A DNA stretch of 64,000 bases, taken from Eledone cirrhosa. Taxonomy: Eukaryota. This document shows, in pieces, positions 19,095 through 51,377 of this stretch (its first letter is position 1; every line of letters starts with the position of its first letter). The stretch is taken from NCBI GenBank assembly GCA_964016885.1, contig OZ024764.1, positions 22,878,001-22,942,000 on the forward strand. Reading direction: 5' to 3'. The translations under genes and the position numbers were made by a program. The notes beneath the pieces were generated by a model. The model made no database searches and had not been told where the DNA came from. It saw only the letters and a program-made list of their open reading frames with translations.

Positions 19095-20126
19095 ATGTCG
19101 AAAAATATAGTAAAATCACCATTCCACTGTGATATCTGTGGTAAATCATTCTCTCGTAGTAATCACCTAACTACTCACAGACGTATTCATACAGGAGAAG
19201 AGCCATTCCACTGTGATATCTGTGGTAAATCATTCTCTCAGAGTAATCACCTAACTACTCACAAACGTATTCATACAGGAGAGAAACCATATCACTGTGA
19301 TATCTGTGGTAAAACGTTCTCTAAAAATAATAACCTAACTACTCACAAACGTATTCATACAGGAGAGAAACCATATCATTGTGATATCTGTGGTAAATCA
19401 TTCCCTTGTAGTCAGCACCTAACTACTCACAAACGTATTCATACAGGAGAGAAGCCATATCAATGTGATATCTGTGATAAATCATTCAGTGACAGTAGTA
19501 GCTTCAGTGTTCACAAACAAATTCATACAGGAGAGAAGCCACATCACTGTGACATCTGTGGTAAATCATTCAGTCACAGAAATGCCTTAACTACCCACAA
19601 ACGTATTCATACAGGAGAGAAACCATATCATTGTGATATCTGTGGTAAATCATTCCCTTGTAGTCAGCACCTAACTACTCACAAACGTATTCATACAGGA
19701 GAGAAGCCATATCAATGTGATATCTGTGGTAAATCATTCAGTTACAGGAGTAGCATCAGAGTTCACAAACAAATTCATACAGGAGAGAAGCCATATCACT
19801 GTGACATCTGTGGTAAATCATTCAGTCGCAGTAGTACCTTAACTAACCACAAACGTATTTATACAGGAGAGAAACCATATCACTGTGATATCTGTGGTAA
19901 ATCATTCGGTAACAGAAGTAGCTTAGCTAACCACAAACGTACTCATACAGGAGAGAAGACACATCGCTGTGACATCTGTGGTAAATCATTCCCTCATAGT
20001 TATACCTTAACTACCCACAAACGTACTCATACAGGAGAGAAGCCATATCACTGTGACATCTGTGGTAAATCATTCTCTCAAAGTGGTAACTTAACCAAGC
20101 ATGTGCGTATTCATACAGAAGTTTAG
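19095..20126 (+). CDS. C2H2 zinc-finger protein G1, 343 aa, 12 tandem fingers, no effector domain
   Basis: Open frame of CxxC-x12-HxxxH repeats with TGEKP linkers; finger 9 has His to Tyr; fingers 4 and 7 are identical. Confidence 0.93.
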   Translation: MSKNIVKSPFHCDICGKSFSRSNHLTTHRRIHTGEEPFHCDICGKSFSQSNHLTTHKRIHTGEKPYHCDICGKTFSKNNNLTTHKRIHTGEKPYHCDICGKSFPCSQHLTTHKRIHTGEKPYQCDICDKSFSDSSSFSVHKQIHTGEKPHHCDICGKSFSHRNALTTHKRIHTGEKPYHCDICGKSFPCSQHLTTHKRIHTGEKPYQCDICGKSFSYRSSIRVHKQIHTGEKPYHCDICGKSFSRSSTLTNHKRIYTGEKPYHCDICGKSFGNRSSLANHKRTHTGEKTHRCDICGKSFPHSYTLTTHKRTHTGEKPYHCDICGKSFSQSGNLTKHVRIHTEV

Positions 20127-20395
20127 CTGTATCAATATCAAACTCATTACATCATACTACAACAACAACAACAATTGTGTAGATCCATCATCCTTGCTAA
20201 AACTGGGGTTAACCTTGTAGGTTTTACCTATGACAGGGATCATAAACACCAGGTTTCCATTTTTGAAGCAGTGTTTGAAGATTTTGTGTAAATTGAAGTT
20301 TTTCACATTAAACTTTGATTTATTATACTTTAACAGGTAAGATATATATTTGTATTTTCAGTAAAGGTTTGGGCATTATGTAATTTAAACCTGCC

Positions 20396-20401
20396 AATAA
20401 A
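20396..20401 (+). terminator. Candidate polyadenylation signal of G1
   Basis: AATAAA ~270 nt after the stop, GT-rich tract downstream; conserved at 51693-51698. Confidence 0.5.
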
Positions 20402-20606
20402 ATGAAAACTTTTGTTGTTGCTAGTCTGACATTGATATTAATTCTATTGTCCTGTACGTTGTCTCACATATCACAGATTAAACAGATTTTAACGATAACA
20501 ACAGAAATCAATAACTTGTAAGCCTAATATCTAGCTTCCATTTTACCTATTTGATATTGTTGTTCCCCTCCTGTCTCTTCAGGTGTTTTAGATTTCAACT
20601 TCTATC

Positions 20607-21032
20607 ATCATCATCATCATCATCACCGTTTTACGTCCGTTCTTCCACGCTAGCATTGGTTAGACGGATTGTCGTGTTGTGGGCAGTGTCTGGTTGGCTG
20701 ACCATGCCTTGCTCATACAGGAACTGATTTGGCTTGATTTCTAAAGCTGGAAGTCCTTCTTAACACCAACCTCATTTACAGTGAGTGCTGGGTGCTTTTT
20801 TGTGGCGCCTACACGTTCACTTTACAGTGTGGGCTGGGTGCTTTTTTGCCGTGGCACCTCCACGACGACCTTGCGCGGGGTGTGTGTGTGTGTGTGTGGG
20901 GGGGGGGGGGGCATATTGTCTATATGCTTTAGCTCGTACCCATGGGAGGTCGGGTACTCTGTATTACTGCGTGACGCCAGAGGTCACGGACGTGTGTCAT
21001 TGCCTTTAAGAGGTGTAATTGGGTATGGTCGG
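20607..21032 (-). mobile_element. 5'-truncated RTE LINE 3' end, specific to the G1 flank
   Basis: (GAT)n tail; TSD CTTCTATC at 20599-20606 and 21033-21040; empty site at ~51897-51904; matches 28197-28602. Confidence 0.9.
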
Positions 21033-21209
21033 CTTCTATCTACTGTACTATTCCATCACCAAGGCAACATTCATCTGGCTGACAGCTTACATCAACTACA
21101 GATCTCATCAGTGGTTCAGAACAGGCTGCCTGAAAGAAACTTCCAGATATCTTCTATGTCATAGCTATCAATCTCCTCCTCCTTATCATATGTATCATGT
21201 AGAACATCT

Positions 21210-21625
21210 CTGAATTTATATTTAACAGGGAGATCTTTTACTGTCCTTACCCCTTTTGCTAGATTGTCTTGTACCTCTCTCACAGTCCCTCTAGATCTTA
21301 TATTTAACAGGGAGATCTTTTACTGTCCCTACCCTTTCCTCTAGATTGTCTTATTACACTCTCACAGTCCCTATATATCATATTTAACAGGGAGATTCTT
21401 TACTGTCTCTACCCTTTTCTCTAGGTTGTCTTGTACCTCTCTCACAGTCCCTCTAGATCTTATATTTAACGGAGATATTTTACTATCCCTACCCTTTTCT
21501 CTAGGTTGTCTTGTACCTCTCTCACAGTCCCTCTAGATCTTATATTTAACAGGGAGATCTTTTACTCTCCACCCCTTCTATCTCCAGATAGTCTTGTATC
21601 TGTCAGTCCCTCTAGATCTTACACC
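21210..21625. repeat. ~80-bp minisatellite
   Basis: Same unit as 1-390, about 5 copies. Confidence 0.9.
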
Positions 21626-21911
21626 TAGTATCTAGTCTATGTTGAGTGGTATGTCCTTCGCCAGTAAAGGAGTTAATATTCCCAACCATCTGTCTATCCT
21701 GTTTTCTGATGAGAATGAAGTCGATCTAGTTTATCTCTTCACCTGATTGAAGTAACTAGATCAAGTAACTAGATGTTTTCCTGTAAGTTAGTGTTGCAGT
21801 GTTTGTGTCACCATGTAAGGTTTATATCTATTAATATAGAGATGTAGTAAAGTTTTCACTGTTGTATCTCTATTTTCTAAATATCTTAATAATGTTTCTC
21901 TACTATTTCAG

Positions 21912-22266
21912 AATATCACATGACCTTGACAGAAAAGAGTCTTTTAAAGACAACAGAAAGATGTTACATACAAGTGATATAAACTTGTTTAGTCTGTGGT
22001 GAATTATTTCTTCTGAATTGAGATAAATAACAACATTTTCCTTTTTCACTGTCTGGAATATTTACAAGATGATTTTACATTCTGATTAAACTTTGGATAT
22101 TTACAAAGGAGTTTTCAAAATATTTGGATATTGACAAAGATCACGTTTGATAAAATTATGAACAATAGAAATATTTACATCAACATAGGAATATTTTCCA
22201 GAAGAGATGGGAAAATCATATACCACTAATATTTGTGGTAAAGTATTCTCTCTTCTTTATATGTAG
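21912..22266 (+). pseudogene. Orphan zinc-finger exon stub (copy 2, half finger frameshifted)
   Basis: Paralog of 674-1041; ATG at 22207. Confidence 0.65.
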
Positions 22267-22394
22267 AATATCTAACTAAACACTTTAACTAACAAACTAT
22301 TGTGCTATAGAATTGACAAACTTGAACAATGCTTAATAAATGTTACAGATTTCTCCAAACTGTCGTTTACTAACTTTAATTTGAAGCTATATTA

Positions 22395-22787
22395 TCTATA
22401 TACTACTAAAACTCTGTGATCGTGTCTTGTCTGTAATTTAATACAGCTAAAACAGTGCATAATGGGGAAATACTTTGAAAAGAATAAAACAAGTTTTGTA
22501 TAAAATGGAGCACAGGTTCCCAAGATACGGGGTTTTCTGGGTACCTTCATAAATATAGGGAGAGAAAGAGATAGTGGTTGTGAGAGTGAGGAGACAGATG
22601 GAAGAGGGAGAGAGAGAGCTGCTGGTGTTGTTTAATAAAATGTGTGCATATATATATATATACATATGTGTCTATATATATATATATGTCTGTATATTTT
22701 AACTATTTGAACATTATTTTTAAGTGAACATGATTTTAAAATAATAGTTTTAAGGGAACGTGACCCAACAGGTCGCGGGTGGTCTAG
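22395..22787 (+). mobile_element. Non-autonomous Helitron-like element (duplicated with cassette)
   Basis: A|TCTATATACTACTAAAACTC...GGTCTAG|T. Confidence 0.7.
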
Positions 22788-23194
22788 TTTGTTACTAAAT
22801 ACTAGATATTAGAGGGTCATGTTGTTCTAGATGTGCTGGAAGAGCCATTCCATCTCGTGAGGCTCACACCAGCAGCTAGCCACCTCAGCACCTATGGTGG
22901 TATATTTATTATATTATTTATTCTTTATCATTAACATTAATATAAAAGATAATTATATATTTTTAGAGAAGAACCTCTAACTTCATATAGCTTAGGGCTT
23001 CAGTAGGTAAAAGTCTGCCCCTGCTTGTCTTGTATTTTTTAGGGGAGAAGTTAGGGAATACTGTTATTGTGTGAAAGTTTTCTAAATCTTCTTCAGCCAC
23101 TAACATGGAGAAGATATTTCAGTAAGAAGGTTCACATCCTGACATCTATAGCTGTTAACAATGAGATTGGAATTCATTATTAAACAAATGTTAT

Positions 23195-23930
23195 ATCATC
23201 ATCACTGTTTTACATCAGTTTTTCCACGCTGGCATGGGTTAGACGAGTTATCCTGTTGTAAGCAAGGCCAGGTCAGGTGATCACGTGTTGCTTCTACAGA
23301 ACAAATTTTGGATTGGTTTCTACAGCTGGATGCACCAACCTCATTTACATTAAGTACTGGATGCATTTTACCATCTCACCATCACGACCACTTTACAGTG
23401 TGGGCTGGGTGCTTTTTGTTGTGACAGCTACATGATCACTTTAAAGTGTGCGTTGGGTACTTTTTGTTGTGACACCAACATGACCATTTTAAAGTTTTTG
23501 CTGGGTACTTTTTGTTGTCACCTACATGACCACTTTACAGTTTGGGCTGGGTGCTTTTTGCCGTGACACCTACGCAACCGCTTTACAGTGTGGGCTGGTT
23601 TCTTTTTGTCATATCACCTACATGACCAGCTTATAGTGTTGGCTGTGTGTTCTTTACAGTGTGGGCTGGTTTCTTTTTGTCATATCACCTACATGACCAC
23701 CTTATAGTGTTGGCTGTGTGTTCTTTGCAGTGTGGGCTGGTTTCTTTTTGTCATATCACCTACATGACCACCTTATAATGTTGACTGTGTGTTCTTTACA
23801 GTGTGGGCTGGTTTCTTTTTGTCATATCACCTACATGACCACCTTCTAATGTTGACTGTGTGTTCTTTACAGTGTGGGTTGGGTGCTTTTTGTCATATCT
23901 CCTACCCAACCACTTTGCAGTGTGGGCAGT
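23195..23930 (-). repeat. RTE/SINE tail with 48/71-bp minisatellite
   Basis: Paralog of 1935-2660. Confidence 0.8.
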
Positions 23931-23961
23931 GAAATATCAGTAATGCACCAGCTCCAATATT

Positions 23962-24470
23962 CAGTAATCAGAAGAAGGGAGGTAGGCATAAAAGCCAAAC
24001 TTGCTGTCTTCAATTAGGTTTTTGTGCCAACCCTTACCAATGGTCACATATCTTGGGTAATGACCAAAAGAATATGATTGGGAATACAAATGGCAGATAT
24101 GGGATTCCTCTGAAGGGTCTTTGAAGGAACTTTTCTCAATAAAGTGCATAGCTCTGAGATCAGAGAGTCACTCCAGGTGGAGCTGTTACTTCTCCTAATT
24201 GAGAGATCACAGCTGCAATACTATGGCCATGTGGTTAGAATGTCTGAGGAAAGAATCACTGGATAGATTTTACAGGCTAAACTAACCGGCAGGAGACCCA
24301 GGGGTAGACCTGAGCAAGATGGTCACATAACATCCATGAGCTTGGCTGGTCTCTCTGGGAGATCCAGCCAGATCAGTTGGAGTGGGTTGCTTCTGACAGG
24401 ACCTGTTGAAGGGAGTGTTTGAGGACTCTGCCCCCAAGACCCTTTCTGGAATAAGTGGGTTAATACGAAG
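23962..24470 (+). mobile_element. RTE (Expander/Rex3-like) fragment
   Basis: Paralog of 2690-3200. Confidence 0.8.
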
Positions 24471-24762
24471 AGGTTGAGGTTACATAATCAACATCAGATT
24501 TCCCTGCTAGCAAGGAGTTAATGAGTCTACTTCAACCAAGTAAGTACTGAAGTGAGGCTACTGATCTCCCAGACAGACCAAGGATCTGAGACTTATTTAC
24601 ATAAGGTCTCATTTGCTACTGAGTGCACAGAAAAGGTTGTCATGTCTTTGTCATGATTGAAAGGTTCTCCGACACTATTGTCGGGCAAGCTTTCTATGGC
24701 TAGATGTCCTTCACATGACCAACCACATTACAGCCTGTGTTGGGTGTGTTTATCATGTAGGT

Positions 24763-27120
24763 GAGGCATAACAAACTGAGGGTTCCCCAAGGGCCACATA
24801 GGTCACATGTGTTGTCTGAGGGTTGCACACTACAACTAATTATGTACACGACAACTAATTAAAGTCATTTAATAAAATATATTGCAGAAAGATTTGTTAC
24901 TTAAATTTAGAAACATACAATGTACATACAAATGTTTTAGCAGCATTCATGAATACAAAGTAATGAAGTAGTTTGACAAAAAACTAAAATTTAACATGTC
25001 AACATATACTTGCAGATTGTAACAGCAACAAATACATTGTACACAAATAACAACAGTTGAAAACTGAACATTTATTTGCTACTATTCAATCATTTTTAGT
25101 GTTTTGTCCTGAGGCTTGACACTTCTTTCTGTTGACAATGTTTGGTATGTCTGGCTGAAATGTTTGTACAGTTCCAACTTTGATCAGATGACAAGTGTTG
25201 ATCAGTCAGCCTTGTTCTCTGAGAAGTTTTTGTTAATTTCATGAAGGAAAGTAACTGTCCACTCACATAGGTAGAACCAAACATTGCCATAATCTTTGTG
25301 ACAAACTTTCTGATGTTAATAAACTTTTCAGGAAGGTATGAAAAGAAACCAGGTATCCCCACTACAAGATACTTTGTTCTGAGTGTAGAATCTGACTGCA
25401 TTTCCAATAGTTCCATCTGCAGGCATTCTTCTGCCTTCATCAAAGGTGAATGGTGCTGAGAATAATGTAAACTGATGTTCAAAAAATGAGAAATCACAAA
25501 ATCTTTCTTGAAATTTCTTTAACAACAATTCCAGGTGACTGTCATACTTAACTAGGCTAAATACAGACTCAGTATTGGCAGTGTTTTTCAGTTCTTTGCA
25601 CATAGGAAAATGAACTAAATTTTCATCTGACGACAGAGATTTCCATAAGCTTAGTTTTCTAATGAAGAACTTGATGTCATCATTCAACTGATTGATGGGT
25701 TTGTTTTAACCTTGTAATTTCAAATTAAGATCAGTTAATTGTGCAGTAATATCCACAACAAAACCAGATGTTGGAGCCAACTTTCATCTTTTATTTCATC
25801 TGTGTTTTAACCTTTTCTCTCCAAAAACGTAATTATTTCTTGTCTCAACAAATAGAATCTTTTCAGCACTTTGTGACATGTCAACCAGCAGACTTCTGTG
25901 TAGAATGGAACATCAGCGAACTGATTATCCATATCTTCCAACAACTGGCTGAACTGACGGTGGTTGAGAGCACGGCCTCTGATTTAGTTCACTGTCTTTG
26001 TGACCAAGCTAAGCACATGATGCAATTTTAAAATCTTTGAACATAAATTTTGTTGATGAATAATACAGTGAAAATGTGCAAATGATGAATCTAGATATGA
26101 GTTTTCTATTTTTGGTTGTAACTTGGCAGCAACACCATTATGTCTACCAACCATATTTGCAGCACTGTCAGTAGATAAACATGCAAGTTTACTCAGATCA
26201 AAACCATGCAGACCCTGCTTGACCTTCTCAAAGATGTCCTGGTTTGTTATAGTGTCATGCATGGGGACCAGTTCAATCAGTTCTTCATAAATATTAAATT
26301 CACAGTCACAGGCCCTGGTGAAGAATGCAAGCTGTACTATTCCAGTGATGTCAACAGTCTCATCAATAGCAATAGAAACATGTTCAAACCTTGATGATAC
26401 AGCCTTTAACTGTTGTTTCAGATCACCTGACATTTCATTAATCTGTTCAGCAACAGTGTTCCTGGTTAATGAAATGTCTTTGAATAACTCTGCTTTCTCT
26501 GGACAATTTCAGCTGTTTTTACAAGACATTGCTTTACAAAATCTCCTTCACTGTAAGATTTCCCACTCATGGCAATCATTTGACTGAGTTCATAGCTTGC
26601 AGTAACAGAAGTGACATCCTCTTCCTGAATTAACATAAAACAGGTCTGTTGCTGTGTCAAGTTAGACTTCAATTCCTTGAGTCTTGAAACACACATTGGG
26701 CCTTCATATTTATCGTAAGATCGAGGGTTTGTTTCATAATGTCTTTTTAAATTGTACTCTTTTGGCATGGAGATGTAGTTGTTGCAAATTAAACAGTGTA
26801 TCTTTCTGTTCACCATTGGGCAAAAATACTGTAATTCCCACTTTTCTTGAAACACTTGCCCTTCTTCGTTCACTTTCCTTTTTCTCTTAGCTGGAGGAGC
26901 ACTAACCATTTCAAAAACGAAATCATTTGAAATTTTGAAAGAAAGTTTTCTGTTAATGAGCTGCACGTGATTAATGGAAGTTAAAAGTAGTTGACAAAAA
27001 TTGCACCAAAAAAAATAATTGTATCGAAAATGTTTTAAATTTTATATTACGAAAATGAAACATGATCGCACTGTAAAAACCTTTGTGTGGGCCGCAGGTT
27101 TGCTTGCAAAGGGCCGCATG
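24763..27120 (-). mobile_element. hAT transposon copy 2, right terminus deleted
   Basis: IAIDETVDITG, HCIIHQQNLC, AMFGSTYV motifs; left TSD at 24755-24762; right TIR and TSD lost between two GCATGT repeats. Confidence 0.92.
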
Positions 27121-27244
27121 TCCATCAGTGTCTTCTGCTACATTAACTACCAGGAGATCACTACATGAGTCAAAGACTACATTTCAAAGAAGGGTCATAA
27201 AAGAACTAAATATGAAAGTCCTCACAGCAAAAAGCAAATTATTG

Positions 27245-27652
27245 AGCTTTGGGTCTAGGCCAAGGGGCAGAAGTGCTGCGCCCTGTGGATAAGACTGCAA
27301 AAGTATTCGCCCCGGACGATGGACAGTTACACCCACTGCAACAGCCACCCCAACCTCATGGGGCACCCTCTTCAGAAGGGCCACCAACGTACTGATCTTA
27401 CAGAGGAGCTTGGCAGTACGGGGTCCAAGTACTTCTGAGGTCTCAATGGTGACCAGTGTGAAGAGACCTACAAATGATGTCATCCCAGTTATGTTGGACT
27501 GTAATATACTGGGGTATAGAGAGGCCTTAACCTGTCTCAGCCGGGCCACCCAGGGTTGTGTCATCTAGATACCAGACAGGGGTAACTAGACCATGTTGTC
27601 AACTGTCACCACCAATAGGAGTGAGGCGAGTGGGTCCCCTTGCTAGACACCA
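27245..27652 (-). mobile_element. CRE-like non-LTR relic, copy 2
   Basis: Paralog of 5700-6100. Confidence 0.6.
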
Positions 27653-27922
27653 TATATAAAAACGTATTTGCTAATTACTTTAATGAATAATTTGTTTCAT
27701 ATGTAATTATTACTTTTAACACAATAGGATTTTGTACACGTGTTTGTTTGAAAACATCTTTCAAAGAAGTATGAGACAGTCTTTTGCAGTCTTCTGGAGT
27801 TGCGACCGAGAGATAGTATTAGCAATTGGAAAGACCAATGGAAACATTGTTTCCTCGGTCCGATTTGACGAAAAGTCGATCGTAAAAAAAATATATATAT
27901 TTATATATATATATATATATAT

Positions 27923-28602: not shown

Positions 28603-28936
28603 ATATAGAGAGATAGAGAAACACACAAACGTACACTACTGTAAAACACATGTAAGGGGAGACAATTCTCGTTACATTCCCCCTTCTTTTTGATATACGT
28701 TCTTTATATGTTTTGTACAATGGAACCTGCTTTATTTTGTGTCCTAAGTAAATTTCTGTTTAAGTATTTACGAGATTCACAATGATTCACGTAACCAAGT
28801 TACTTACATAGAGATATATTTCACATAGAATCACAACAAATGAAAATATTAAGTCAACACTCTGTCAATCAGTCTCACATCACATGGGGTGCCGGAGTCT
28901 CCCTCTAATACTTTCTGAGGCAGTCTTACCTCGAGT

Positions 28937-30107
28937 GAGATCTTTTACTGTCCCTATCCTTTTCTCTAGGTTGTCTTGTACCTCTCACAGTCCCTCTAGA
29001 TGTTATGTTAAACAGGGAGATCTTTTACTCTCCAACCCTTCTATCTCCAGATAGTCTTGTATCTATCAGTCCCTCTAGATATTACACCTAGTATCTAGTC
29101 TATGTTGAGTCGCACGTCCTTCTCCAGTAAAGGAGTTAATATTCCCAACCATCTGTCTATCCTGTTTTCTGATGAGAATGAAGTCAATCTAGTTTATCTC
29201 TTCACCTGATTGAAGTAACTAGATCAAGTAACTAGATGTTTTCCTGTAAGTTAGTGTGGCAGTGTTTGTGTCACCATGTAAGGTTTATATCTATTAATAT
29301 AGAGATGTAGTAAAGTTTTCACTGTTGTATCTCTACTTTCTAAATATCTTAATAATGTTTCTCTACTATTTCAGAATATCACATGACCTTGACAGAAAAG
29401 AGTCTTTTAAAGACAACAGAAAGATGTTACATACAAGTGATATAAACTTGTTTAGTCTGTGGTGAATTATGGTGAAATATTTCTTCTGAATTGAGATAAA
29501 TAACATTTTCCTTTTTCACTGTCTGCAATATTTACAAGATGATTTTACATTCTGATTAAACTTTGTATATTTACAAAGGAGTTTTCAAAATATTTGGATA
29601 TTGACAAAGATCACATTTGATAAAGTTATGAACAATAGAAATATTTACATCAACATGGGAATATTTTACAGAAGAGATGGGAAAATCATTATACCACTGT
29701 AATATTTGTGGTAAAGTATTCTCTCTTCTTTATATGTAGAACATCTAACTAAACACTTTAACTAACAAACTATTGTGCTATAGAATTGACAAACTTGAGG
29801 AATGTTTAATAAATGCTACAGATTTCTCCAAACTGTCATTTACTAACTTTAATTTGAAGCTATATTATCTATATACTACTAAAACTCTGTGATTGTGTCT
29901 TGTCCGTAATTTAATACAGCTAAAACAGTGCATAATGGGGAAATACTTTGAAAAGAATAAAACAAGTTTTGTATAAAATGGAGCACAGGTTCCTAAGATA
30001 CGGGGTTTTCTGGGTACCTTCATAAATATAGGGAGAGAGCGAGAGAGTGGTTGTGAGAGTGAGGAGACAGATGGAAGAGAGAGAGAGAGCTGGTGGTGTT
30101 GTTTAAT

Positions 30108-30143
<36 letters not shown>

Positions 30144-31588
30144 CGTATGTGTATATTTTAACTATTTAAAAATTATTTTTAAATAACTTAAAAGATAATT
30201 TTAAGGCAACGTGACCCAACAGGTCCCGGGTGGTCTAGTTTGTAACTAAATACTAGATATTAGAGGGTCATGTTCTAGATGTGCTGGAAGAGCCATTCCA
30301 TCTCGTGAGGCTCACACCAGCAGCTAGCCACCTCAGCACCTATGGTGGTATATTTATTATATTATTTATTCTTTATCATTAATATTAATATAAAAGATAA
30401 TTATATATTTTTAGAGAAGAACCTCTAACTTCATATAGCTTAGGGCTTCAGTAGGTAAAAGTCTGCCCCTGCTTGTCTTGTATTTTTTAGGGGAGAAGTT
30501 AGGGAATACTGTTATTGTGTGAAAGTTTTCTAAATCTTCTTCAGCCACTAACATGGAGAAGATATTTCAGTAAGAAGGTTCACATCCTGACATCTATAGC
30601 TGTTAACAATGAGATTGGAATTCATTATTAAACAAATGTTATATCATCATCACTGTTTTACATCAGTTTTTCCACCCTGGCATGGGTTAGACGAGTTATC
30701 CTGTTGTAAGCAATGCCTGGTCAGGTGACCACATGTTGCTCCTACAGAACAAATTTTGGTTTGGTTTCTACAGCTGGATGACCTTCCTACAACCAAGCTT
30801 ATTTACATTAAGTACTGGGTGCTTTTTGTCGTGACACCTACATGACCACTTTACAGTGTGGACTGGGTACTTTTTGTTGTGATACATACGTGACCACTTT
30901 ACAGTGTGCGTTGGGTGCTGTTTGTTGTGACACCTACATGACCACTTTACAGTTTTGACTGGGTGCTTTTTGTCGTGACACCTACATGACCACTTTATAG
31001 TGTGGACTGGGTACTTTTTGTTGTGACACCTACATGACCATTTTAAAGTTTTGGCTGGGTACTTTTTGTTGTCACCTACATGACCACATTACAGTGTGGG
31101 CTGGGTGCTTTTTGCCGTGACACCTACGTACCCGCTTTACAGTGTGGGCTGGTTTCTTTTTGTCATGTCACCTACATGACCAGTTTATAGTATTGGCTGT
31201 GTGTTCTTTACAGTGTAGGCTGGTTTCTTTTTGTCATATCACCTACATGACCACCTTAGAGTGTTGGCTGTGTGTTCTTTGCAGTGTGGGCTGGTTTCTT
31301 TTTGTCATATCACCTACATGACCACCTTATCATGTTGACTATGTGTTCTTTACAGTGTGGGTTGGGTGCTTTTTGTCATATCACCTACATGACCACCTCA
31401 TAATGTTGACTGTGTGTTCTCTACAGTGTGGGTTGGGTGCTTTTTGTCATATCTCCTACCCAACCACTTTGCAGTGTGGGCAGTGAAATATCAGTAATGC
31501 ACCAGCTCCAATATTCAGTAATCAGAAGAAGGGAGGTAGGCATAAAGCCAAACTTGCTGTCTTCAATTAGGTTTTTGTGCCAACCCTT
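28937..31588 (+). repeat. Local tandem re-duplication of the 3'-flank module (80-mer, stub 29375-29739, Helitron 29868-30238, 48/71-mer)
   Basis: Sequence jumps at 28937 back to the equivalent of ~21480 and stays colinear to the start of the Expander fragment. Confidence 0.9.
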
Positions 31589-33772
31589 TGGATATTTACA
31601 AAGGAGTTTTCAAAATATTTGGATATTGACAAAGATCACATTTGGTAAAATTATGAACAATTGAAATATTTACATCAACATAGGAATATTTTCCAGAAGA
31701 GATGGGAAAATCATTATACCACTGTAATATTCGTGGTAAAGTATTCTCTCTTCTTTATATGTAGAATATCTAACTAAACACTTTAACTAACAAACTATTG
31801 TGCTATAGAATTGACAAACTTGAGGAATGTTTAATAAATGTTGCAGATTTCTCCAAACTGTCGTTTACTAACTTTAATTTGAAACTATATCATCTATATA
31901 CTACTAAAACTCTGTGATTGTGTCTTGTCCGTAATTTAATACAGCTAAAACAGTGCATAATGGGGAAATACTTTGAAAAGAATAAAACAAGATTTGTATA
32001 AATTGGAGCACAGGTTCCCAAGATACGGGGTTTTCTGGGTACCTTGATAAATATAGGGAGAGAAAGAGATAGTGGTTGTGAGAGAGAGGGAGCTGGTGGT
32101 GTTGTTTAATAAAATATGTGTGTGTATATATATATATATAAACGTATGTGTATAGATATATATATGTATGTGTATATTTTAACTATTTTAAAATGACTTT
32201 TAAAAAATAGTTTTAAGGGAACGTGACCCAACAGGTCCCGGGTGGTCTAGTTTGTTACTAAATACTAGATATTAGAGGTTCTAGATGTGCTGGAAGAGCC
32301 ATTCCATCTTGTGAGGTTCACACCAGCAGCTAGCCACCTCAGCACCTATGGTGGTATATTTATTATATTATTTATTCTTTATCATTAACATTAATATAAA
32401 AGATAATTATATATTTTTAGAAAAGAACCTCTAACTTCATATAACTTAGGGCTTCAGTAGGTAAAAGTCTGGCCCTGCTTGTCTTGTATTTTTTAGGGGA
32501 GAAGTTAGGGAATACTGTTATTGTGTGAAAGTTTTCTAAATCTTCTTCAGCCACTAACATGGAGAAGATATTTCAGTAAAAAGGTTCACATCCTGACATC
32601 TATAGCTGTTAACAATGAGATTGGAATTCATTATTAAACAAATGTTATATCATCATCACTGTTTTACATCATTTTTTCCACACTGGCATGGGTTAGACGA
32701 GTTATCCTGTTGTAAGCATTGCCAGGTCAGGTGACCACGTGTTGCTCCTACAGAACAAATTTTGGATTGGTTTCTACAGCTGGATGCCCTTCCTAGCACC
32801 AACCTCATTTACATTGAGTACTGAGTGCTTTTTGTCGTGACACCTACATGACCACTTTACAGTGTGGACTGGGTACTTTTTGTTGTGACACCTACATGAC
32901 CACTTTACAGTGTGGACTGGGTGCTTTTTGTTGTGACACCTACATGACCACTTTACAGTGTGGACTGGGTGCTTTTTGTTGTGACACCTATATGACCACT
33001 TTACAGTGTGGACTGGGTACTTTTTGTTGTGACACCTACATGACCACTTTACAGTGTGGACTGAGTGCTTTTTGTTGTGACACCTATATGACCACTTTAC
33101 AGTGTGGACTGGGTACTTTTTGTTGTGACACCTACATGACCACTTTACAGTGTGGACTGGGTGCTTTTTAACATCTCACCAGCACCACCACTTTACAGTG
33201 TAGGCTGGGTGCTTTTTACCATCTCACCATGATGACCACTTTACATTGACTACTGGGTGCTTTTTGTTGTGACACCTACATGACCACTTTACAGTGTGGA
33301 CTGGGCGCTTTTTGTCGTAACACCTGCATGACCACTTTATAGTGTGGTCTGGGTACTTTTTGTCGTGACACCTACATGACCACTTTACCATGTGGACTGG
33401 GTACTTTTTGTCGTGACACATACATACATACATACACACACATATACATACATTTATAATATAACCATACATGACCACTTTACAGTGTGGTCTGGGTACT
33501 TTTTGTTGTGACACCTACATGAGCACTTTACAGTGTGGACTGGGTGCTTTTTGTTGTGACACCTACATGACCACTTTACAGTGTGGACTTAGTACTTTTT
33601 GTTGTGACACCTACATCACCACTTTACAGTGTGGACTTAGTACTTTTTGTTGTGACACCTACATGACCACTATACAGTGTGTACTGGGTACTTTTTGTTG
33701 TGACACCTACACAACCTCTTTACAGTGTTGGCAGTGAAATATCTAATGCACCAGCTTCAGTAATCAGAAGAT
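31586..33772 (+). repeat. Further partial copy of the 3'-flank module (stub ATG 31702, Helitron 31893-32250)
   Basis: Junction caacc-CTT-tggatatt joins the Expander fragment to the middle of the stub. Confidence 0.9.
32820..33735. repeat. Expanded homogeneous 48-bp minisatellite
   Basis: 16-codon period (MTTLQCGLGTFCCDTY), interrupted by a CATA microsatellite at ~33415-33470. Confidence 0.95.
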
Positions 33773-35752: not shown

Positions 35753-35774
35753 GTGTGTGTGTATATATATGAAG

Positions 35775-37653: not shown

Positions 37654-40117
37654 CTACATATGAAAGTCTGCTGTCCAGGTTGGTGGTTTACGACTTCTTT
37701 GCGAGATCCGCAGTGTTGGGGCAGCACTTTGGGTTTCCTCTACCTCGGAGTCCGTTGACACAGTGATTCTACGGACATCCAGGACATGACGTGGAACTCC
37801 GTCCATGGACACATTGTTCTGGGAATTTACGGCCGTCACTGTTCCCCTTCCCCATTGAGATGTGCAACGTGCATCTGGGGGCTTAACCCAGACTTCCTCG
37901 CCCACCTGCACGGGTGCCACCACTCGTATCTGAATACTGCTCTGTGTGGCACCGATTCCTCGACCTGTCCCACCCAAGGGGACATGTTGTACCAGAACAC
38001 TGCCTCCATTGGTGAGATATGGCCCCGCTCCGCCATTGCCTTGATCGTCCGGTGGTGTCGCTCCACAATTCCATTCCCGCTCGGCATGTGCGCTGCTCTG
38101 AAGAAACGGTCCACCTTCCATCCATCGAGCATCTCCCTCAGCGCCTCCGAGCGGAACGCTGCGCTGTTGTCCATCAGCAGTTCGTCCACAGGGCCCCGCT
38201 CCAAGAACACCTCTCTCAACGTCCGCATGATTTCCTCGCCCGTTCCAGTCTTCATCTCCCTCCATATCGCCTTCCGTCCTGGTCCACAGTCGACCATCGA
38301 GAGGTACATTCCCTGTCGGTAGTGCGTTACATCCACCGCCAATCGTTTCCAGTCGCGATCCACTGGGAGGCTTCCCGTTTCGTGTACACCCGGGGTGGAT
38401 CAAGGGACTGACATCGGATGCAGCCTCTAACCACCCTTTGAACACTGTGACTGTTAACGTCCGAGTCGATTCTCCTGGCTAGGAACAGGCTCCTATCCAC
38501 TCCCATGTGGTGCATGTCATGCAACCCTTTCAGATCCGACTCGGTCAGCCGACACACGGCAGCTATCTCATCTTCTACCTCCTCCGGCGCTTCCATCCAG
38601 GCTTTCTTCACCCTAGTTAAGATGTCCGCCCTATTTTTCTCTGAGGGCACGAAAACTACGCTCAGCCTCAGAACGAACTCGGTGGCCAGCTCTCCTAAAG
38701 TTCCCAGGCGGCGCTTTATCAGCATCTCCACCGCGCCTCTCGTTCGCACTCTCTTCTCACTGGTGAGCACTGATCTCACCCATCCGAGTACAGTAGCCGA
38801 GTCGGTGCGTATCTCGATGGTGCGCAGTCCCCACCTCAGGGCGAGGTTCACCCCTCTCAACACTGCATCCTCGACCTCAACACCTCCTATCTCCAACGTG
38901 ACACCCAGCGCTATGCTGCTGGCATCGCACCATACGGTCCCGCTCTGTGATTTGGGAACATACCAGCGTCGCCGCACTGGGTCGTCGGCTTTCACCCTCC
39001 CCACGATCTCCTGCATCATGGCCACCGTCCTCTCTCCCACTCGTCTCTTGACATAGCTGCATGCCGTCCGGAGCCACCCAGCAATCGGGTAGTGACCCAC
39101 CAACTTTCCACACACCGAGAAAAGCTCCCGCCTACTCATACTTGGGCCCAGTTCTGGAACTTCATTTCCCCTCTGGAATACCAAGACGCCCGTCCTGTCT
39201 CGCCGTAGCCTAAGTCCCAGTGCGGCTCCTCCCTCCAACGCTTCTGACGGCTTCGCAGCCAGTCCATACCCCTGTAAATGGCTCGTGACCTCCGCCGCCG
39301 CCACCACAGACTCGTCCACTAGGATGTCGTCAATATAGGAGTTAGTGGCCCACTTCATCTTGTCGGCCTTTCCCAGAATGGTCTTGAGGACCGCCGCCAT
39401 GATCTTCGGTGCGGAGCTCAGCCCGAATCCGAGCTTGGTCAGGCAATATGTCCGGCCCTTATACCTGACCAGCTGATACTGCCAGAGCTTCTCATCTATA
39501 TGCAATTGCAAGTATGCCGACTTTAGATCTACGATTGCTGAACCCCCCGTCATGCGTCTCCACTCACGCAGGGTTTCCCCACAGACATCCGTGACCTCTC
39601 CACCCGTGTGGCATGACAGGTGCTCGTTCAGCTCCCGAAAGTCCAGCACCGGCCTCACCTTGTTCTTCGTGGGTTGCGCCACCGCCATTAACGGCAATAC
39701 TCTGCACTTCACCTCCTCTTTCCAGGGAAGCAGTATGCCCTCCTCAATCCATCTCTCTACCTCTCGCTCGAACTCGCTCCTAATAGTTTCCTTTCAATGT
39801 GTGTTGATAGCAGCCCACTTTGGTCTTCAGTGTTGGTGGTTCTCACTTCCAGTACCACTCAACAACCCATCGAACACGGCCTTGAAGTCTTTGTCCTGCA
39901 CAGTGTAAGCGGGGTATTTCTCCTCGTGGGCCTTCTGGTTGTCCTGTCGCGCACTCACAGCGCATACCGATGCAGCGGCGCCAAACGACACACCGACGTT
40001 GTTCACTGTGACGCCTCCTAGACGGCCAATTGCGTCCATGCCCATAGCCACGCCGATCCCATCCACCTTACTTTCCTTCCCCGTACCGCTATTTCCATCT
40101 CGCTGCGATCTCAGCAT
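37654..40117 (-). pseudogene. pol (protease remnant, RT, RNase H, integrase), frameshifted
   Basis: VRPVLDFRELN, DLKSAYLQL, LGFGLSSAP, SYIDD, WCDASS, HDMHH..CIRC, LAVDVTH, LLMDNS, NGIVERHHRTIK. Confidence 0.88.
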
Positions 40118-40317
40118 TCAATTTTCCTGCCGTCGACTGCCCTTACGCTGCTCTTCCCTCTCCACCTCTGCGCCATCAGTGTCGTCAAACAGCCCGTGTC
40201 CACGAGTGCTCGCTGTGGCTTTCCCCTCACGAAGACTTCCACCACGGGCAGCGCCTCTACTCGTAAGGGGAAACTACCGGCGCAGTAGTTCCCCTTGGAT
40301 TGTTTCCCTGGTCGCAG

Positions 40318-40992
40318 TTAATACCGGTAGCATATTATTTCCAGCCTTGACTCTCTGCAGTCTCTAGCCATGTGCGGTCCCTGGCACCAAAAACAGCGAC
40401 CCCTAAACGTTCGCGGGCGATCGCGTGCCGCGGTTGCCTCCCTTTCACCATTTCGCTGCCAGCTGTCTTGAGCCTCTGTAGTTGCTATCGCTGCAACACT
40501 CTTCTTGGCATCTTCTGCTATGATCCAGGCTTGTTCCACCAGTGAATGCATTTCCATTTCTTTGTAACCCGGGACTTGCTGCAGTTTCACCGCTATGTCG
40601 TCTGGAAATCCATTTAAGAACGCCAACCGCACCGTGCATTCGCATTCCACCTGATATCCAGCCAACATGGCCAATCGCCGTATTTCCGCTGCGAAAATTT
40701 CAACGCGTTCACCGTTCCATCTAATTCTTGCTAGCTTAGCGAAAGCGGCTAACGGTGCCTCTGCGAACGCTTCCATCATGCGCCTCTCAATCTTTTGCGC
40801 ATCTCTTTCGCTGTGTTCGTCCAACTCAAGGAAGAGTACCAACGCGTCCCCCTCGAGGTACAGTGCCATGAGGCCAGCCACATCTTCTATCTTCTGCAAG
40901 CTTGCGACCAGCCGGACTTTTCGCAGCCAAGCGACATCAACTACCCCGGTAAATGCCCTGATAGCTTCGCTTGTTCGTAGTCTTGTCGCCAT
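40318..40992 (-). pseudogene. gag-like ORF with CCHC knuckle
   Basis: 224 aa ending CFWCQGPHMARDC; a second knuckle is broken (ICYRY*). Confidence 0.8.
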
Positions 40993-41402
40993 CTTCTAAT
41001 TTGTCTTGCGGTACGTGATAAAAAAAAAACAACAGACTTCTCTTTGTTTTTCCAGTAGCTTTATTTATTTATTTTTTTTCAATCAGATCTCAGTTTCCAG
41101 TGCCGAAATAGCTTGTGGTTAGAAAAAGCTATCTCACCGCTTTTCATAGGCGCCGCTAAATTCCACTGCTGGTCTCTCCTCTCCCACGTGCATCCAACTC
41201 CTTAACACCGGGAGATGCCAAAACTCGCGTCTACACCGTTGCTGGTCACCACTAGAGAGGGCCATCTGCTGGCCCTTCCGGTCGAGCATCCTTCCGGCCA
41301 AGCACCCTTCCGGTCGAGCAATCCCCCGCTTCCGGCCACCGCACGCCACACCATACCCAGGTTTTTATTACAAACTTCACATAATTTAATTCGGTAAAAA
41401 TA

Positions 41403-41548
41403 TTTACGTCACAAAAAAACTTGACCTTTGACATTGAAGCATGCGCAGTGATGCAGTTGTCGACTTCCTGTCTACGTGTCAGTCTTCCTACAACATCATT
41501 TAGAAAACATTTCTGTAAATACTAAACACCTGAGACTATAATGTAAGT
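41403..41548 (+). promoter_or_regulatory. Putative promoter and exon 1 of G2, donor at 41543
   Basis: Paralog of 8335-8467 with extra TTGACCTTTGAC and CACGTG changed to TACGTG. Confidence 0.6.
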
Positions 41549-42234
41549 ATTATGTCTATTAATATTGTAGATTTAAGCTCACTTTTCACATCACAAATAT
41601 ATATTTTCTTGTTTGTTTCATTACTGGAAATATAAAATGTTATCGTAATTATCTATATTTTACCTACCTCTAATTAATTAAAGTGAAAACTTTTGTTGTT
41701 GCTGAAAAATAAATTAACTAAACTAAATATTTAAATATTCTAAAGGTCGTTTTTATATTATGTGATGATATAATTAATATATTTTATTACAATTGTATAA
41801 ATTTACAGTAGAATAACGTTGTAAATATGTTTTAAATATATACATAAATAACATAAGTGTGTAAATAACATTAGAACTTGCTGGCAATTCCTTGAGAAAG
41901 ACATTACAAATATATTGTCTAAACTGTGTATAATAATATAATTTATTGAACAATAATGATAAAGGAAAGAAAAACACAGTGGGAGATGGCATTTGACCAC
42001 CAAGTGTGATAATAGGCCACACCTCACACCTTAGGGGTTAACTACACACTTTGAGGCAAGCCAACACACTGGCAGCATTACTAAGGTGTTGAAATAACCA
42101 GGTACCCTCACGGGTATCACCTGGTACCTCGGTAAGGCGAGGCTAATGTGCTGAAATAACCAGGTACCCTCACGGGTATCACTTACACCTCAGTAAGGTG
42201 AGGCTAAGGTACTGAAATAACCAGGTACCATCAC

Positions 42235-43982: not shown

Positions 43983-44079
43983 TATATATGTGTGTGTGTC
44001 TGTGGCCTTAATACCCTAGTCACAGACACACTCATACACACACACACACAAGTAATAATTTCGTTCAACAACATGAGGG

Positions 44080-45180: not shown

Positions 45181-45469
45181 ACATTTCGGGGTCAACTTCC
45201 TTTCAGGGTCAACTTCCTTTCAAACTATTTTCCCATTATACCCCGTTTTGGCTGTATTACATTAGAGACAAGACACAATCACAGAGTTTTAGGTTTATAA
45301 TGTTATAGTATCATGATAGGGTAATACAGTTATTTATAGACCTGTGGTAAATGTTGGTTCAGTGCACCCTGGGGGATGTTAGTGTTGGTTCAGTCCACCC
45401 TGGGGGGTGTAAGTGTTGGTTCAGTCTACCCTGAGGGGTGTCAGTGTTGGTCAATGATAACTTTTATAA

Positions 45470-48466: not shown

Positions 48467-48470
48467 TTAA

Positions 48471-48678
48471 CCCTTTAGTATATAAACTGGCCAAATCTGG
48501 CCAGACTTCTCCCACATCTTTCTGTTCAAACTGGCCGTAACTGGTCACTTATACTTATGTTAAGGTATTGTTCTCAAAATAAGTAACATCAAAATCTCAT
48601 AGATTTGATATTATGTGAGATAAAGCATTTACTGTGAAAATATAATAGTAAATATAGAGTAATGTGAATACTAAAGGG
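48471..48678. mobile_element. piggyBac-type MITE, copy 2
   Basis: TTAA|CCCTTTAGTAT...ATACTAAAGGG|TTAA. Confidence 0.85.
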
Positions 48679-48679
48679 T

Positions 48680-49055
48680 TAATCTAATCTCACTAATAAC
48701 TACTTTTATCAGTCACTTTAATCTAATGTCACTAATAACTACTTTTATCAGTCAGTATAATCTAATGTCACTAATAACTACTTTTATCAGTCAGTTTAAT
48801 CTAATGTCACTAATAACTACTTTTATCAGTCAGTATAATCTAATGTCACTAATAACTACTTTTATCAGTCAGTATAATCTAATGTCACTAATAACTACTT
48901 TTATCAGTCAGTATAATCTAATGTCACTAATAACTACTTTTATCAGTCAGTATAATCTAAAGTCACTAATAACTACTTTTATCAGTCAGTTTAATCTAAT
49001 GTCACTAATAACTACTTTTATCAGTCAGTTTAATCTACTACCACTAATAACTAAC
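48680..49055. repeat. 39-bp minisatellite, about 9.5 units, no LINE
   Basis: Same unit, uninterrupted. Confidence 0.95.
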
Positions 49056-50009
49056 CTATGTTAGGCAGCACATTCTTCACTAAAGAAGGCCTTAGTATTT
49101 ATTAGAGTCCATTTATCAATATAGAAATATTATATGACATTTGTACTGATGTATTACAAGTTTCTGAGTATCTTATAATGTTCTTTTATTATTTCAGAAT
49201 ACCAGAGGACATTGGCATTAAAGAGCACGTTACATCAGACATATCCTCAATATTTACCATTTCTAAAATATTACCCATCATTTTCAAATAATTTTGAAAA
49301 CACTCAACACTTTGAAGGGATTTAATAATATAACTAAATTTCTCAGTATTAAGCTGCTATTTGGAACATAACTTTGCACAATTTCATGAAGTTACAATGG
49401 AAAGTTTTTAGATAAATATAAAGACTGGTATGAAAATGATAAAACACTTTTATATCAGTTGTTTCATCAACACCATTATTTAAAGACTAAAGGAAGCTGT
49501 TATACAGAACAGATACAACCTTGTTTATATAAATCTATGAGAGAAATACTGGGAAATATTTCTTGTAAACTCAATAACACTTCTATTCTTTGCTGTCTGG
49601 AATATGTAGAAGATACAAAATAAAGCAGAAGAAATTTACACATGATTTTGTAAGATCTTCATATATTGACAAAGATGATAGTTGATGGAACTACAGGAGT
49701 AGAAATATTTCCATTATTACAGGAATAACTAATCAAATAAAAACCAAAAAGATTAGATTCTTCACTGTCTGGAATATGTACAAGATGATTTTATATGTAT
49801 ATTAAACTTGAAGAGATCTACAAAACAGTTTGTATCATCTTTAAATATAAAGAAAGACCAAGTTGATGGAAATATATCTGGAGGAATATGTTTTAGGAAT
49901 AACATTATAAACATAAAGAAGAAAAATATCCATATATTGACAGAAGAAAAATATTAAAACTGTGAATTATGTGTGAAACTGAGGTCATTGATATCTTTTA
50001 GTAGGAGTT

Positions 50010-51377
50010 ATGTCGAAAAATATAGTAAAATCACCATTCCACTGTGATATCTGTGGCAAATCATTCTCTCGTAGTAATCAGCTAACTACTCACAAACGTA
50101 TTCATACAGGAGAGAAGCCTTATAAGTGTGATATCTGTAACAAATCATTCAGTCACAGTAGTAGCGTCAGAGTTCACAAACAAATTCATACAGGAGAGAA
50201 GCCATATCACTGTGACATCTGCGGTAATTCATTCTCTCAGAGTAATCACCTAACTACTCACAAATATATTCATACAGGAGAGAAACCATATCACTGTGAC
50301 ATCTGTGGTAAATCATTCTCTCATAGTCATCACCTAACTACTCACAAACATATTCATACAGGAGAGAAACCATATCACTGTGACATCTGTGGTAAATCAT
50401 TCTCTCAGAGTCATCACCTAACTACTCACAAACGTATTCATACAGGAGAGAAACCATATCATTGTGACATCTGTGGTAAATCATTCTCTCATACTAATCA
50501 CCTAACTACTCACAAACGTATTCATACAGGAGAGAAGCCTTATAAGTGTGATATCTGTAACAAATCATTCAGTCACAGTAGTAGCGTCAGAGTTCACAAA
50601 CAAATTCATACAGGAGAGAAGCCATATCACTGTGACATCTGCGGTAAATCATTCTCTGGCAGAAGTAGCTTTGTTAAACACCATCGTATTCATACAGGAG
50701 AGAAACCATATCACTGTGGCATCTGTAGTAAATCATTCTCCTACAGAAGTAGCTTTGTTAAACACCATCGTATTCATACAGGAGAGAAGCCATATCACTG
50801 TGACATCTGTGGTAAATCATTCTCTCAGAGTCATCACCTAACTACTCACAAACGTATTCATACAGGAGAGAAGCCATATCATTGTGACATCTGTGGTAAA
50901 TCATTTTCTCGTAGTCACCTAACTACTCACAAACATATTCATACAGGAGAGCACCCATATCACTGTGATATCTGTGATAAATCATTCTCTCATAGTGGTA
51001 ACTTAACTATCCACAAACGTACTCATACAGGAGAGAAGCCATATCACTGTGACATCTGTGGTAAATCATTCTCTCATAGTAATACCTTAGCTATCCACAA
51101 ACGTACTCATACAGGAGAGAAGCCATATCATTGTGACATTTGTGGTAAATCATTCGCTGACAGAACTAGCTTAGCTACCCACAAACGTACTCATACAGGA
51201 GAGAAGCCATATAACTGTGACATCTGTGGTAAATCATTCTCTCATAGTAATACCTTAGCTACCCACAAACGTACTCATACAGGCGAGAAGCCATATCCCT
51301 GTGACATCTGTGGTAAATCATTCAGTCACCGTAGTAACTTAACTACCCACAAACGTACTCATACAGGAGTACTCTGA
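50010..51377 (+). CDS. C2H2 zinc-finger protein G2, 455 aa, 16 tandem fingers, no effector domain
   Basis: Same N-terminus as G1 (MSKNIVKSPFHC); fingers 2=7 and 5=10; finger 11 is one residue short. Confidence 0.93.
   Translation: MSKNIVKSPFHCDICGKSFSRSNQLTTHKRIHTGEKPYKCDICNKSFSHSSSVRVHKQIHTGEKPYHCDICGNSFSQSNHLTTHKYIHTGEKPYHCDICGKSFSHSHHLTTHKHIHTGEKPYHCDICGKSFSQSHHLTTHKRIHTGEKPYHCDICGKSFSHTNHLTTHKRIHTGEKPYKCDICNKSFSHSSSVRVHKQIHTGEKPYHCDICGKSFSGRSSFVKHHRIHTGEKPYHCGICSKSFSYRSSFVKHHRIHTGEKPYHCDICGKSFSQSHHLTTHKRIHTGEKPYHCDICGKSFSRSHLTTHKHIHTGEHPYHCDICDKSFSHSGNLTIHKRTHTGEKPYHCDICGKSFSHSNTLAIHKRTHTGEKPYHCDICGKSFADRTSLATHKRTHTGEKPYNCDICGKSFSHSNTLATHKRTHTGEKPYPCDICGKSFSHRSNLTTHKRTHTGVL

What the first reader, a model, noticed from the sequence alone, without database searches (positions are those of the whole stretch)
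19095..51377. Rebuilt zinc-finger arrays inside near-identical gene cassettes
Seen: G1 and G2 share promoter, intron TEs, acceptor, N-terminal leader and 3' UTR with few differences, yet have 12 versus 16 fingers and no fully identical finger between them. Variation sits mostly in the recognition helix (e.g. CSQHLTT, DSSSFSV, HRNALTT versus HSSSVRV, GRSSFVK, DRTSLAT). Internal copies exist (G1 F4=F7; G2 F2=F7, F5=F10). No KRAB, SCAN, BTB or ZAD domain is visible. Known: 84-bp finger arrays of PRDM9 and KRAB-ZNFs turn over like minisatellites, and coleoid cephalopods have large C2H2 clusters. Inference: coding sequence is changing faster than neighbouring decayed TEs, as expected for a specificity-diversifying system of effector-less DNA binders, possibly aimed at TEs.
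Basis: partly seen in the sequence, partly recalled or inferred. Interest (0 to 1): 0.75.

Follow-up and report, generated by a model that had tools for sequence, protein, structure and literature searches.

The report
Two hundred self-shuffling zinc-finger genes
These two genes belong to a tandem family of about 200 zinc-finger genes, likely from an octopus, whose DNA-reading fingers are gained, lost and swapped between copies and appear selected to differ at their DNA-contact positions; whether the genes are expressed and whether they target transposons is untested.

Summary
Observation largely confirmed; interpretation partly supported. G1 and G2 are two of at least 198 paralogous C2H2 cassettes, every mapped one within 4.7 Mb of one contig. 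I analysed 133: 101 intact, 6-28 fingers, 88 distinct fingerprint arrays. G1 and G2 are not sisters (2-6% apart in flanks), so their contrast proves little; true sisters give the test. At 0.5-1% flank divergence 19 of 23 pairs already differ by whole fingers, and by 2-3% arrays barely align. Finger blocks also cross between distant paralogs. But a non-coding 39-bp minisatellite in the same cassette changes about as often (26 versus 28 of 32 pairs), and point substitution in aligned fingers is near the flank rate, so rebuilding is repeat instability. Selection shows in the finger pool: dN/dS about 2.5 at -1/+2/+3/+6 versus 0.5 scaffold and 0.35 structural, above 66 of 66 neutral simulations on the main statistic. 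No effector domain was found; the upstream frame is broken. Expression and transposon targeting are untested. Octopod C2H2 clusters and predicted TE binding are published; family-wide PRDM9-like shuffling I did not find in print. The scan noted the same pattern before on another piece of this genome.

The parts
8335..8461 (+). G1 predicted promoter and non-coding first exon (CRE-like, NRF1-like and ETS-like motifs, names recalled); splice donor GT at 8462-8463
   Evidence: sequence; present in 12 places of the 264-kb contiguous stretch; a 26-mer from it occurs 172 times exactly in the genome; no RNA support
14190..15056 (.). intronic 39-bp minisatellite (22 copies); second piece at 18447-18739 after the LINE; used as non-coding control
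15340..18440 (-). LINE insertion (endonuclease- and RT-like ORFs, identified by eye) splitting the minisatellite; absent from G2, present in G3
18884..19094 (+). G1 predicted splice acceptor (AG at 18882-18883) and 5' part of the coding exon; a 43-codon frame in phase with the array but closed by 6 stops before the ATG
   Evidence: AG kept in 127 of 127 paralogs where the site was found; frame; no homologue
19095..20126 (+). G1 ORF, 343 aa: 11-aa leader plus 12 C2H2 fingers (84-bp units)
20127..20606 (+). G1 predicted 3' UTR, AATAAA at 20396
21630..27800 (.). downstream cassette block with 48- and 71-bp repeats and a broken hAT-like transposase (Spin-doc zinc finger hit below cut-off); duplicated with the genes
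41362..41560 (+). G2 predicted promoter and first exon (end approximate), directly behind an LTR-type element
48680..49053 (.). G2 intronic 39-bp minisatellite (about 10 copies)
49198..50009 (+). G2 predicted acceptor and long (about 810-nt) 5' part of the coding exon, no open frame
50010..51377 (+). G2 ORF, 455 aa: leader plus 16 fingers, F11 shortened by one codon; early stop of a kind shared by 26 copies
59584..64000 (+). promoter and intron of the next cassette G3 (15 fingers; ATG at G000:C25:22945990, outside the window)

Best explanation
G1 and G2 are members of a young tandem family of about 200 C2H2 zinc-finger genes with no detectable effector domain, whose 84-bp fingers are gained, lost and exchanged between copies, likely by unequal crossover and gene conversion, while selection likely favours new amino acids at the DNA-contact positions, so that the copies are predicted to read different DNA sequences. 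Steps: (1) whole cassettes of 13-31 kb (promoter, intron with TEs, single coding exon, downstream block) were duplicated (shown). (2) Arrays gain and lose whole fingers within 1% flank divergence and carry blocks shared with distant paralogs (shown; the recombination route is inferred). (3) This rebuilding runs at about the pace of a neutral minisatellite (shown for frequency of change). (4) The pool of finger types has dN/dS above 1 at -1/+2/+3/+6 and below 1 at structural residues (shown statistically; selection inferred). (5) The proteins most likely act as a fast-renewing set of sequence readers against young repeats or TEs, by occlusion or through a partner supplied in trans (inferred by analogy; untested).
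For: Family size: 198, 161 and 172 exact copies of leader, UTR and promoter words, 0 in the reversed controls; two fully listed sub-markers lie 26 of 26 and 66 of 66 within C25:19.19-23.83 Mb. Turnover: pairs without finger indel 8 of 9 at <0.2% flank divergence, 4 of 23 at 0.5-1%, 3 of 1870 at 2-3%; 32 indel events in 26 disjoint close pairs. Exchange: 5' and 3' flank distances uncorrelated (Spearman -0.07); 46 pairs close at 5' but far at 3' share 0.54 of the first three and 0.11 of the last three fingers, 8 reverse pairs share 0.25 and 0.54; 53 of 120 genes share a block of 3 or more fingers with a gene at least 2.5% away on both flanks. Selection: codon model on 144 finger types gives omega 2.49 at contacts (2dL 15.6, p=8e-5; 2dL 32.8 on a tree built without those columns), about 0.5 scaffold, about 0.35 structural; heterozygosity 0.48 at contact codon positions 1-2, 0.11 at six four-fold sites, 0.04 in flanks; 0 of 66 size-matched neutral simulations with conversion reached the observed contact-versus-all-synonymous ratio of 1.9. 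101 of 133 ORFs intact. Closest named hits for the N-terminal region are Octopus proteins. Octopus ZNFs are predicted to bind TEs more than non-repetitive DNA (PMC10547256).
Against: Expression is not shown. In recent pairs contact nonsynonymous change is only 1.35x the flank rate (p=0.08), and 19 of 30 such nucleotide changes already exist elsewhere in the pool, so they look copied, not new. The within-codon ratio (1.7) was reached by 5 of 66 neutral runs, and in smaller simulations 4 of 56 runs reached 1.9. Non-contact helix codons also fit omega near 3, and scaffold positions +9, +10 and parts of the linker change often, so the signal is regional. The allele-count test was borderline (p=0.05). 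The structural-codon test was uninformative under F3X4. The intact share depends on assumed age (neutral 12-43% at 1.7% per lineage, 50-77% at 0.5%) and the sample was picked by exact-match words, which favours intact copies. 32 of 133 copies are broken and 122 of 1430 fingers in intact genes are non-canonical. No target was predicted or tested.
Confidence: 0.62

Rival explanations
1. Neutral churn: the cluster grew and its arrays shuffle only because tandem repeats are unstable; contact positions are merely unconstrained, and the excess comes from mutation or conversion that is uneven along the finger.
For: The non-coding 39-bp repeat changes copy number in 26 of 32 close pairs against 28 of 32 for fingers. 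Substitution rates in recent pairs are near the flank rate. 32 of 133 copies are broken. The within-codon ratio is reached by 5 of 66 neutral runs.
Against: At +2 and +3 many amino-acid alleles are common while the synonymous third-base transitions stay rare (synonymous diversity 0.12-0.13 versus nonsynonymous 0.39-0.52). Omega is about 2.5 on two trees. 0 of 66 neutral runs match the observed heterozygosity contrast.
Confidence: 0.2
2. The diversification is real but aimed at host sequence, not TEs: developmental or neuronal gene regulation, satellites, or stabilising repeats against ectopic recombination.
For: Expanded cephalopod C2H2 genes are expressed mainly in nervous tissue and fall into neural co-expression modules (PMC12513265). 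PMC10547256 raises genome stabilisation as the main role. No repressor domain was found here.
Against: A shared promoter across about 170 copies and arrays that change within 1% divergence fit poorly with fixed host targets (inference). Octopus ZNF motifs are enriched in TE consensus sequences.
Confidence: 0.15
3. Assembly artefact: the many copies and array differences are mis-joined or duplicated haplotypes.
For: 4 of 7140 pairs have identical flanks and identical fingerprint arrays.
Against: Median pairwise flank distance is 3.0-3.4%; copies carry different TE insertions; 101 of 133 frames are intact and most odd-length fingers are in frame.
Confidence: 0.03

Closest known systems
Octopod and coleoid C2H2 zinc-finger clusters (PMC9068888, PMC9795677, PMC12513265; passages read)
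   Same: Large lineage-specific clusters of tandem C2H2 genes; nearest named hits are Octopus proteins.
   Different: Those passages describe counts, position and expression, not finger-level turnover or dN/dS. The largest octopus-specific clade cited has 108 sequences; this family has at least 198 copies at about 3% flank divergence.
PRDM9 zinc-finger minisatellite (PMC2794550; passages read)
   Same: 84-bp units, whole-finger gain and loss, inter-finger copying, positive selection at contact residues.
   Different: No KRAB, SSXRD or PR/SET found; about 200 paralogs rather than one gene with many alleles; fingers are far less homogenised (four-fold diversity 0.11 here; 2 of 228 synonymous differences in human PRDM9); exchange also runs between genes.
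Young mouse Chr4 KRAB-ZFP cluster (PMC12575710; passages read)
   Same: Cluster of about 5 Mb grown by segmental duplication, TE-rich, many distinct fingerprint arrays (38-47 per strain; 88 in 101 intact genes here).
   Different: No KRAB domain here; TE binding is shown by ChIP-seq in mouse and untested here.
Cyprinid FiNZ-ZNFs and metazoan TE-linked ZNF families (PMC10547256; passages and section 6 read)
   Same: Non-KRAB tandem ZNF expansion with positive selection at base-contacting residues; octopus ZNFs predicted to bind TEs.
   Different: FiNZ-ZNFs have a conserved N-terminal domain and knockdown evidence; here the leader is 11 aa and the upstream frame is closed. Their dN/dS test was on zebrafish, not octopus.

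Membership tests
Tandem C2H2 (Kruppel-type) zinc-finger genes | C-x2-C-x12-H-x3-H fingers joined by TGEKP-type linkers | tested here: met
Coleoid C2H2 cluster | cephalopod origin | tested here: inconclusive
   top two and sixth of 10 hits for residues 1-42 are Octopus proteins at 69-72% identity; the whole-protein search listed unrelated, mostly vertebrate ZNFs; 3.0-Gb genome
Coleoid C2H2 cluster | many genes in a chromosomal cluster | tested here: met
KRAB-, SCAN-, BTB- or ZAD-zinc-finger genes | N-terminal effector domain | tested here: not met
   none among the best 25 Pfam families shown for G1 or G2; 0 hits in 68 of 131 intronic plus-strand frames of 35 aa or more; upstream frame closed by stops in all copies shown. 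A short unknown exon is not excluded without RNA.
PRDM9 | PR/SET, SSXRD and KRAB domains | tested here: not met
PRDM9-like array behaviour | whole-finger gain and loss, inter-finger copying | tested here: met
PRDM9-like array behaviour | dN/dS above 1 at -1, +2, +3, +6 | tested here: met
   omega about 2.5, 0 of 66 neutral runs; weaker on the within-codon statistic, 5 of 66
TE-targeting ZNF families (KZFP, FiNZ-ZNF) | binding to and repression of TEs | not testable with these tools
   needs DAP-seq, ChIP or knockdown
TE-targeting ZNF families (KZFP, FiNZ-ZNF) | expression, notably in germline or early embryo | tested here: inconclusive
   no usable RNA evidence obtained; only indirect signs (conserved splice sites; purifying selection)

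The most novel reading that the evidence does not exclude
The cluster is a combinatorial DNA-recognition repertoire: about 200 genes under one shared promoter trade finger modules as one pool, so each haplotype or population carries its own set of readers, and these effector-less proteins silence young TEs (or mark chromatin) through a cofactor supplied in trans. That would be an invertebrate counterpart of KRAB-ZFP defence that diversifies the way PRDM9 does.
Probability: 0.22. Interest if true: 0.75.

Novelty: new variant of a known kind. Interest (0 to 1): 0.47.

Why it matters
Why cephalopods carry thousands of C2H2 genes is open: neural regulation or TE defence (PMC12988792 sets out both). 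This single young family gives a direct test. It has about 200 copies, sister pairs that differ by one to three fingers, a built-in non-coding control repeat, and a shared promoter and leader that one probe, morpholino or guide could hit. It also separates two things usually lumped together: array rebuilding, which here looks like plain repeat instability, and contact-residue diversity, which looks selected.

Tried and rejected
Expression: no RNA holder listed. Laying four contig runs on window 6000-21500 showed no splice joint among the 15 joints printed (754 were not shown), so it says nothing either way; expression stays open. G1-versus-G2 array divergence as proof of fast coding evolution: rejected, since the two are ordinary-distance paralogs and non-homologous fingers cannot be compared with flanks. 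An N-terminal domain in the 43-codon frame behind the acceptor: no homologue in two searches, frame shortened in 33 of 127 copies. A second candidate acceptor just before the ATG is variable across copies, so the upstream one is preferred; an in-frame exon spliced to it cannot be excluded. The whole-protein homologue search was swamped by unrelated ZNFs. The protein atlas gave no result. Albertin 2015 could not be read. Small neutral simulations were too noisy and were replaced by size-matched ones; both are reported. No binding-site prediction was attempted, as no recognition-code model was on hand. Structure prediction was not run, as it would add nothing for canonical fingers.
Full report
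Observation. Six-frame scanning finds two finger arrays on the plus strand: G1 (ORF 19095-20126, 12 fingers) and G2 (50010-51377, 16 fingers). Pfam shows only C2H2-type and incidental metal-finger families among the best 25 listed for each. The cassettes are shared but not near-identical: eight non-coding blocks differ by 2.0-5.8%, and leader plus finger 1 by 3 of 96 nt.

The family. The window is G000:C25:22878001-22942000 in a 3.0-Gb genome. Exact words from the leader, 3' UTR and promoter occur 198, 161 and 172 times, with 0 in reversed controls; only the first 100 places of each were listed, all on C25. Two sub-markers listed in full lie 26 of 26 and 66 of 66 between C25:19.19 and 23.83 Mb. 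I fetched 120 gene-centred stretches and 200 kb around the window and recovered 133 paralogs, picked by exact words and so biased to well-kept copies. 101 of 133 have an intact array, with 6-28 fingers and 88 distinct fingerprint strings. The nearest named hits for the N-terminal 42 residues are Octopus proteins, so an octopod source is likely but not shown.

Gene anatomy. Each cassette has a predicted promoter and ATG-less first exon ending in a GT donor, an intron with TEs and a 39-bp minisatellite, one coding exon and a downstream block with a broken hAT-like element. The acceptor AG at 18882-18883 is kept in 127 of 127 copies in which the site was found. Behind it lies a 43-codon frame in phase with the array in G1, closed by six stops before the ATG; it has no homologue and may be a decayed N-terminus (inference). 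Of 131 intronic plus-strand frames of 35 aa or more in G1 and G2, I scanned 68, leaving out most of those inside LINE insertions and simple repeats; none hit Pfam. The genes are therefore predicted to be effector-less, pending RNA.

Array turnover. For 120 genes with both flanks I compared flank distance with a finger-level alignment. Pairs without a finger indel: 8 of 9 below 0.2%, 4 of 7 at 0.2-0.5%, 4 of 23 at 0.5-1%, 4 of 41 at 1-1.5%, 3 of 1870 at 2-3%. The share of near-identical aligned fingers falls from 0.99 to 0.11. G1's real sister, C25:20902562 (4 differences in 806 flank bases), lacks G1 F7-F9; another, C25:20935031, has 16 fingers. In 26 disjoint intact pairs there were 32 finger-indel events at 0.71% flank divergence. 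82 of 133 genes hold an internal near-identical finger pair.

Exchange between genes. Among 113 genes (7 with aberrant flanks dropped) 5' and 3' flank distances are uncorrelated. Pairs close only at the 5' side share early fingers (0.54) but not late ones (0.11); pairs close only at the 3' side show the reverse (0.25, 0.54; 8 pairs); pairs far on both sides share 0.13 and 0.06. 53 of 120 genes share a run of three or more fingers with a gene at least 2.5% away on both flanks, up to nine in a row. Crossover or conversion inside arrays is the simplest reading (inference).

The control that tempers the claim. The non-coding 39-bp repeat, complete in 68 genes, differs in copy number in 26 of 32 pairs at 0.5-1.5% divergence, against 28 of 32 with a finger indel (pairs are not independent). 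In aligned fingers of close pairs, synonymous sites ran at 0.74x, scaffold nonsynonymous at 0.84x, structural at 0.30x and contact at 1.35x the flank rate (p=0.08); with 31 pairs the contact value was 1.61x (p=0.002), and most contact changes already exist elsewhere in the pool. So rebuilding needs no selection, and point mutation is not much faster than in the flanks.

Selection in the finger pool. Over 1286 fingers of intact genes, heterozygosity is 0.48 at the first two bases of codons -1, +2, +3, +6, 0.11 at six four-fold sites, 0.015 at Cys/His/Phe and 0.04 in flanks. On a spanning tree of 744 haplotypes the contact nonsynonymous rate is 1.3-2.0x the pooled synonymous rate, depending on edge class, and the structural rate 0.12-0.53x. 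A codon model on 144 finger types seen in two or more genes (of 267 clusters) gives omega 2.49 for contacts (p=8e-5), about 3 for the other helix codons, 0.5 for scaffold and 0.35 for structural codons. Because recombination can inflate such tests, I simulated neutral contacts with conversion: 0 of 66 size-matched runs reached the observed pooled ratio or heterozygosity contrast, while 5 of 66 reached the within-codon ratio; 4 of 56 smaller runs reached the pooled ratio. Uneven mutation or conversion along the finger was not simulated and remains the main rival.

Mechanism. Shown: cassette duplication, whole-finger gain and loss, shared blocks between distant copies, excess amino-acid change in the helix, constraint on the fold. 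Inferred: unequal crossover and conversion as the route, and diversifying selection as the cause of the helix excess. Untested: expression, distinct binding, targets, cofactors. I put the full model at about 0.6, with TE or young-repeat targets the likeliest aim by analogy only.

Known work. Coleoid C2H2 clusters are described in PMC9068888 (passages), PMC9795677 (passages) and PMC12513265 (first of seven parts and passages). [quoted passage not shown] I did not read its supplements, and Supplemental Fig. 8 may already show the octopus entropy pattern. PMC12988792 (passages) sets out the neural-versus-TE debate. PMC2794550 (passages) describes finger homogenisation in PRDM9 and its absence in a typical KRAB gene. 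PMC12575710 (passages) describes a comparable mouse KRAB cluster. Six searches listed no paper on finger-level shuffling or dN/dS within a cephalopod cluster; subscription journals are mostly not covered.

Verdict. Real, larger than reported, and a new variant of a known kind: it works like PRDM9 at the array level and like a young KRAB cluster at the locus level, and is a member of neither. Interest 0.47.

Noticed in passing
window 37395-41358: LTR-type retroelement (direct repeats 37395-37611 and 41125-41358, 90% alike; gag-, RT- and integrase-like frames on the minus strand by eye; weak RVT_1 and DUF7047 hits) ending at the G2 promoter, whose upstream 42 bases are missing.
   Followed up: partly
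window 8560-8870: The AT-rich 300 bp just inside the first intron is 97.4-99.7% identical across the 11 other cassettes, more than most other non-coding blocks (about 92-98%); possible regulatory element or conversion tract.
   Followed up: no
G000:C25:20353478, 20560953, 20706519, 21572115 and others: A sub-lineage starts with runs of up to about 16 near-identical fingers of fingerprint K-T-K-R, the most homogenised arrays in the family; they would be predicted to read a simple repeat.
   Followed up: no
arrays of all intact copies: Finger types are polar along the array: Thr at +10 rises from 3% of fingers in the first fifth to 52% in the last, so exchange seems to keep rough register.
   Followed up: partly
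window 50883-50963 and many paralogs: A finger shortened by one helix codon (81 nt) occurs 34 times across the 133 genes; in-frame odd lengths outnumber frame-breaking ones about 57 to 19.
   Followed up: partly
window 28900-33400: Gene-less partial copies of the downstream cassette block, followed by a Tigger/pogo-like transposase remnant at about 33900-35400 (identified by eye, no Pfam hit).
   Followed up: no
G000:C25:22495298-22638546: A three-gene block appears twice about 105 kb apart (23-, 10- and 17-finger genes), so multi-gene segments are duplicated as well as single cassettes.
   Followed up: no
G000:C25:19.13-19.61, 20.97-21.26 and 21.92-22.05 Mb: Runs of minus-strand copies show inversions inside the cluster.
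   Followed up: no
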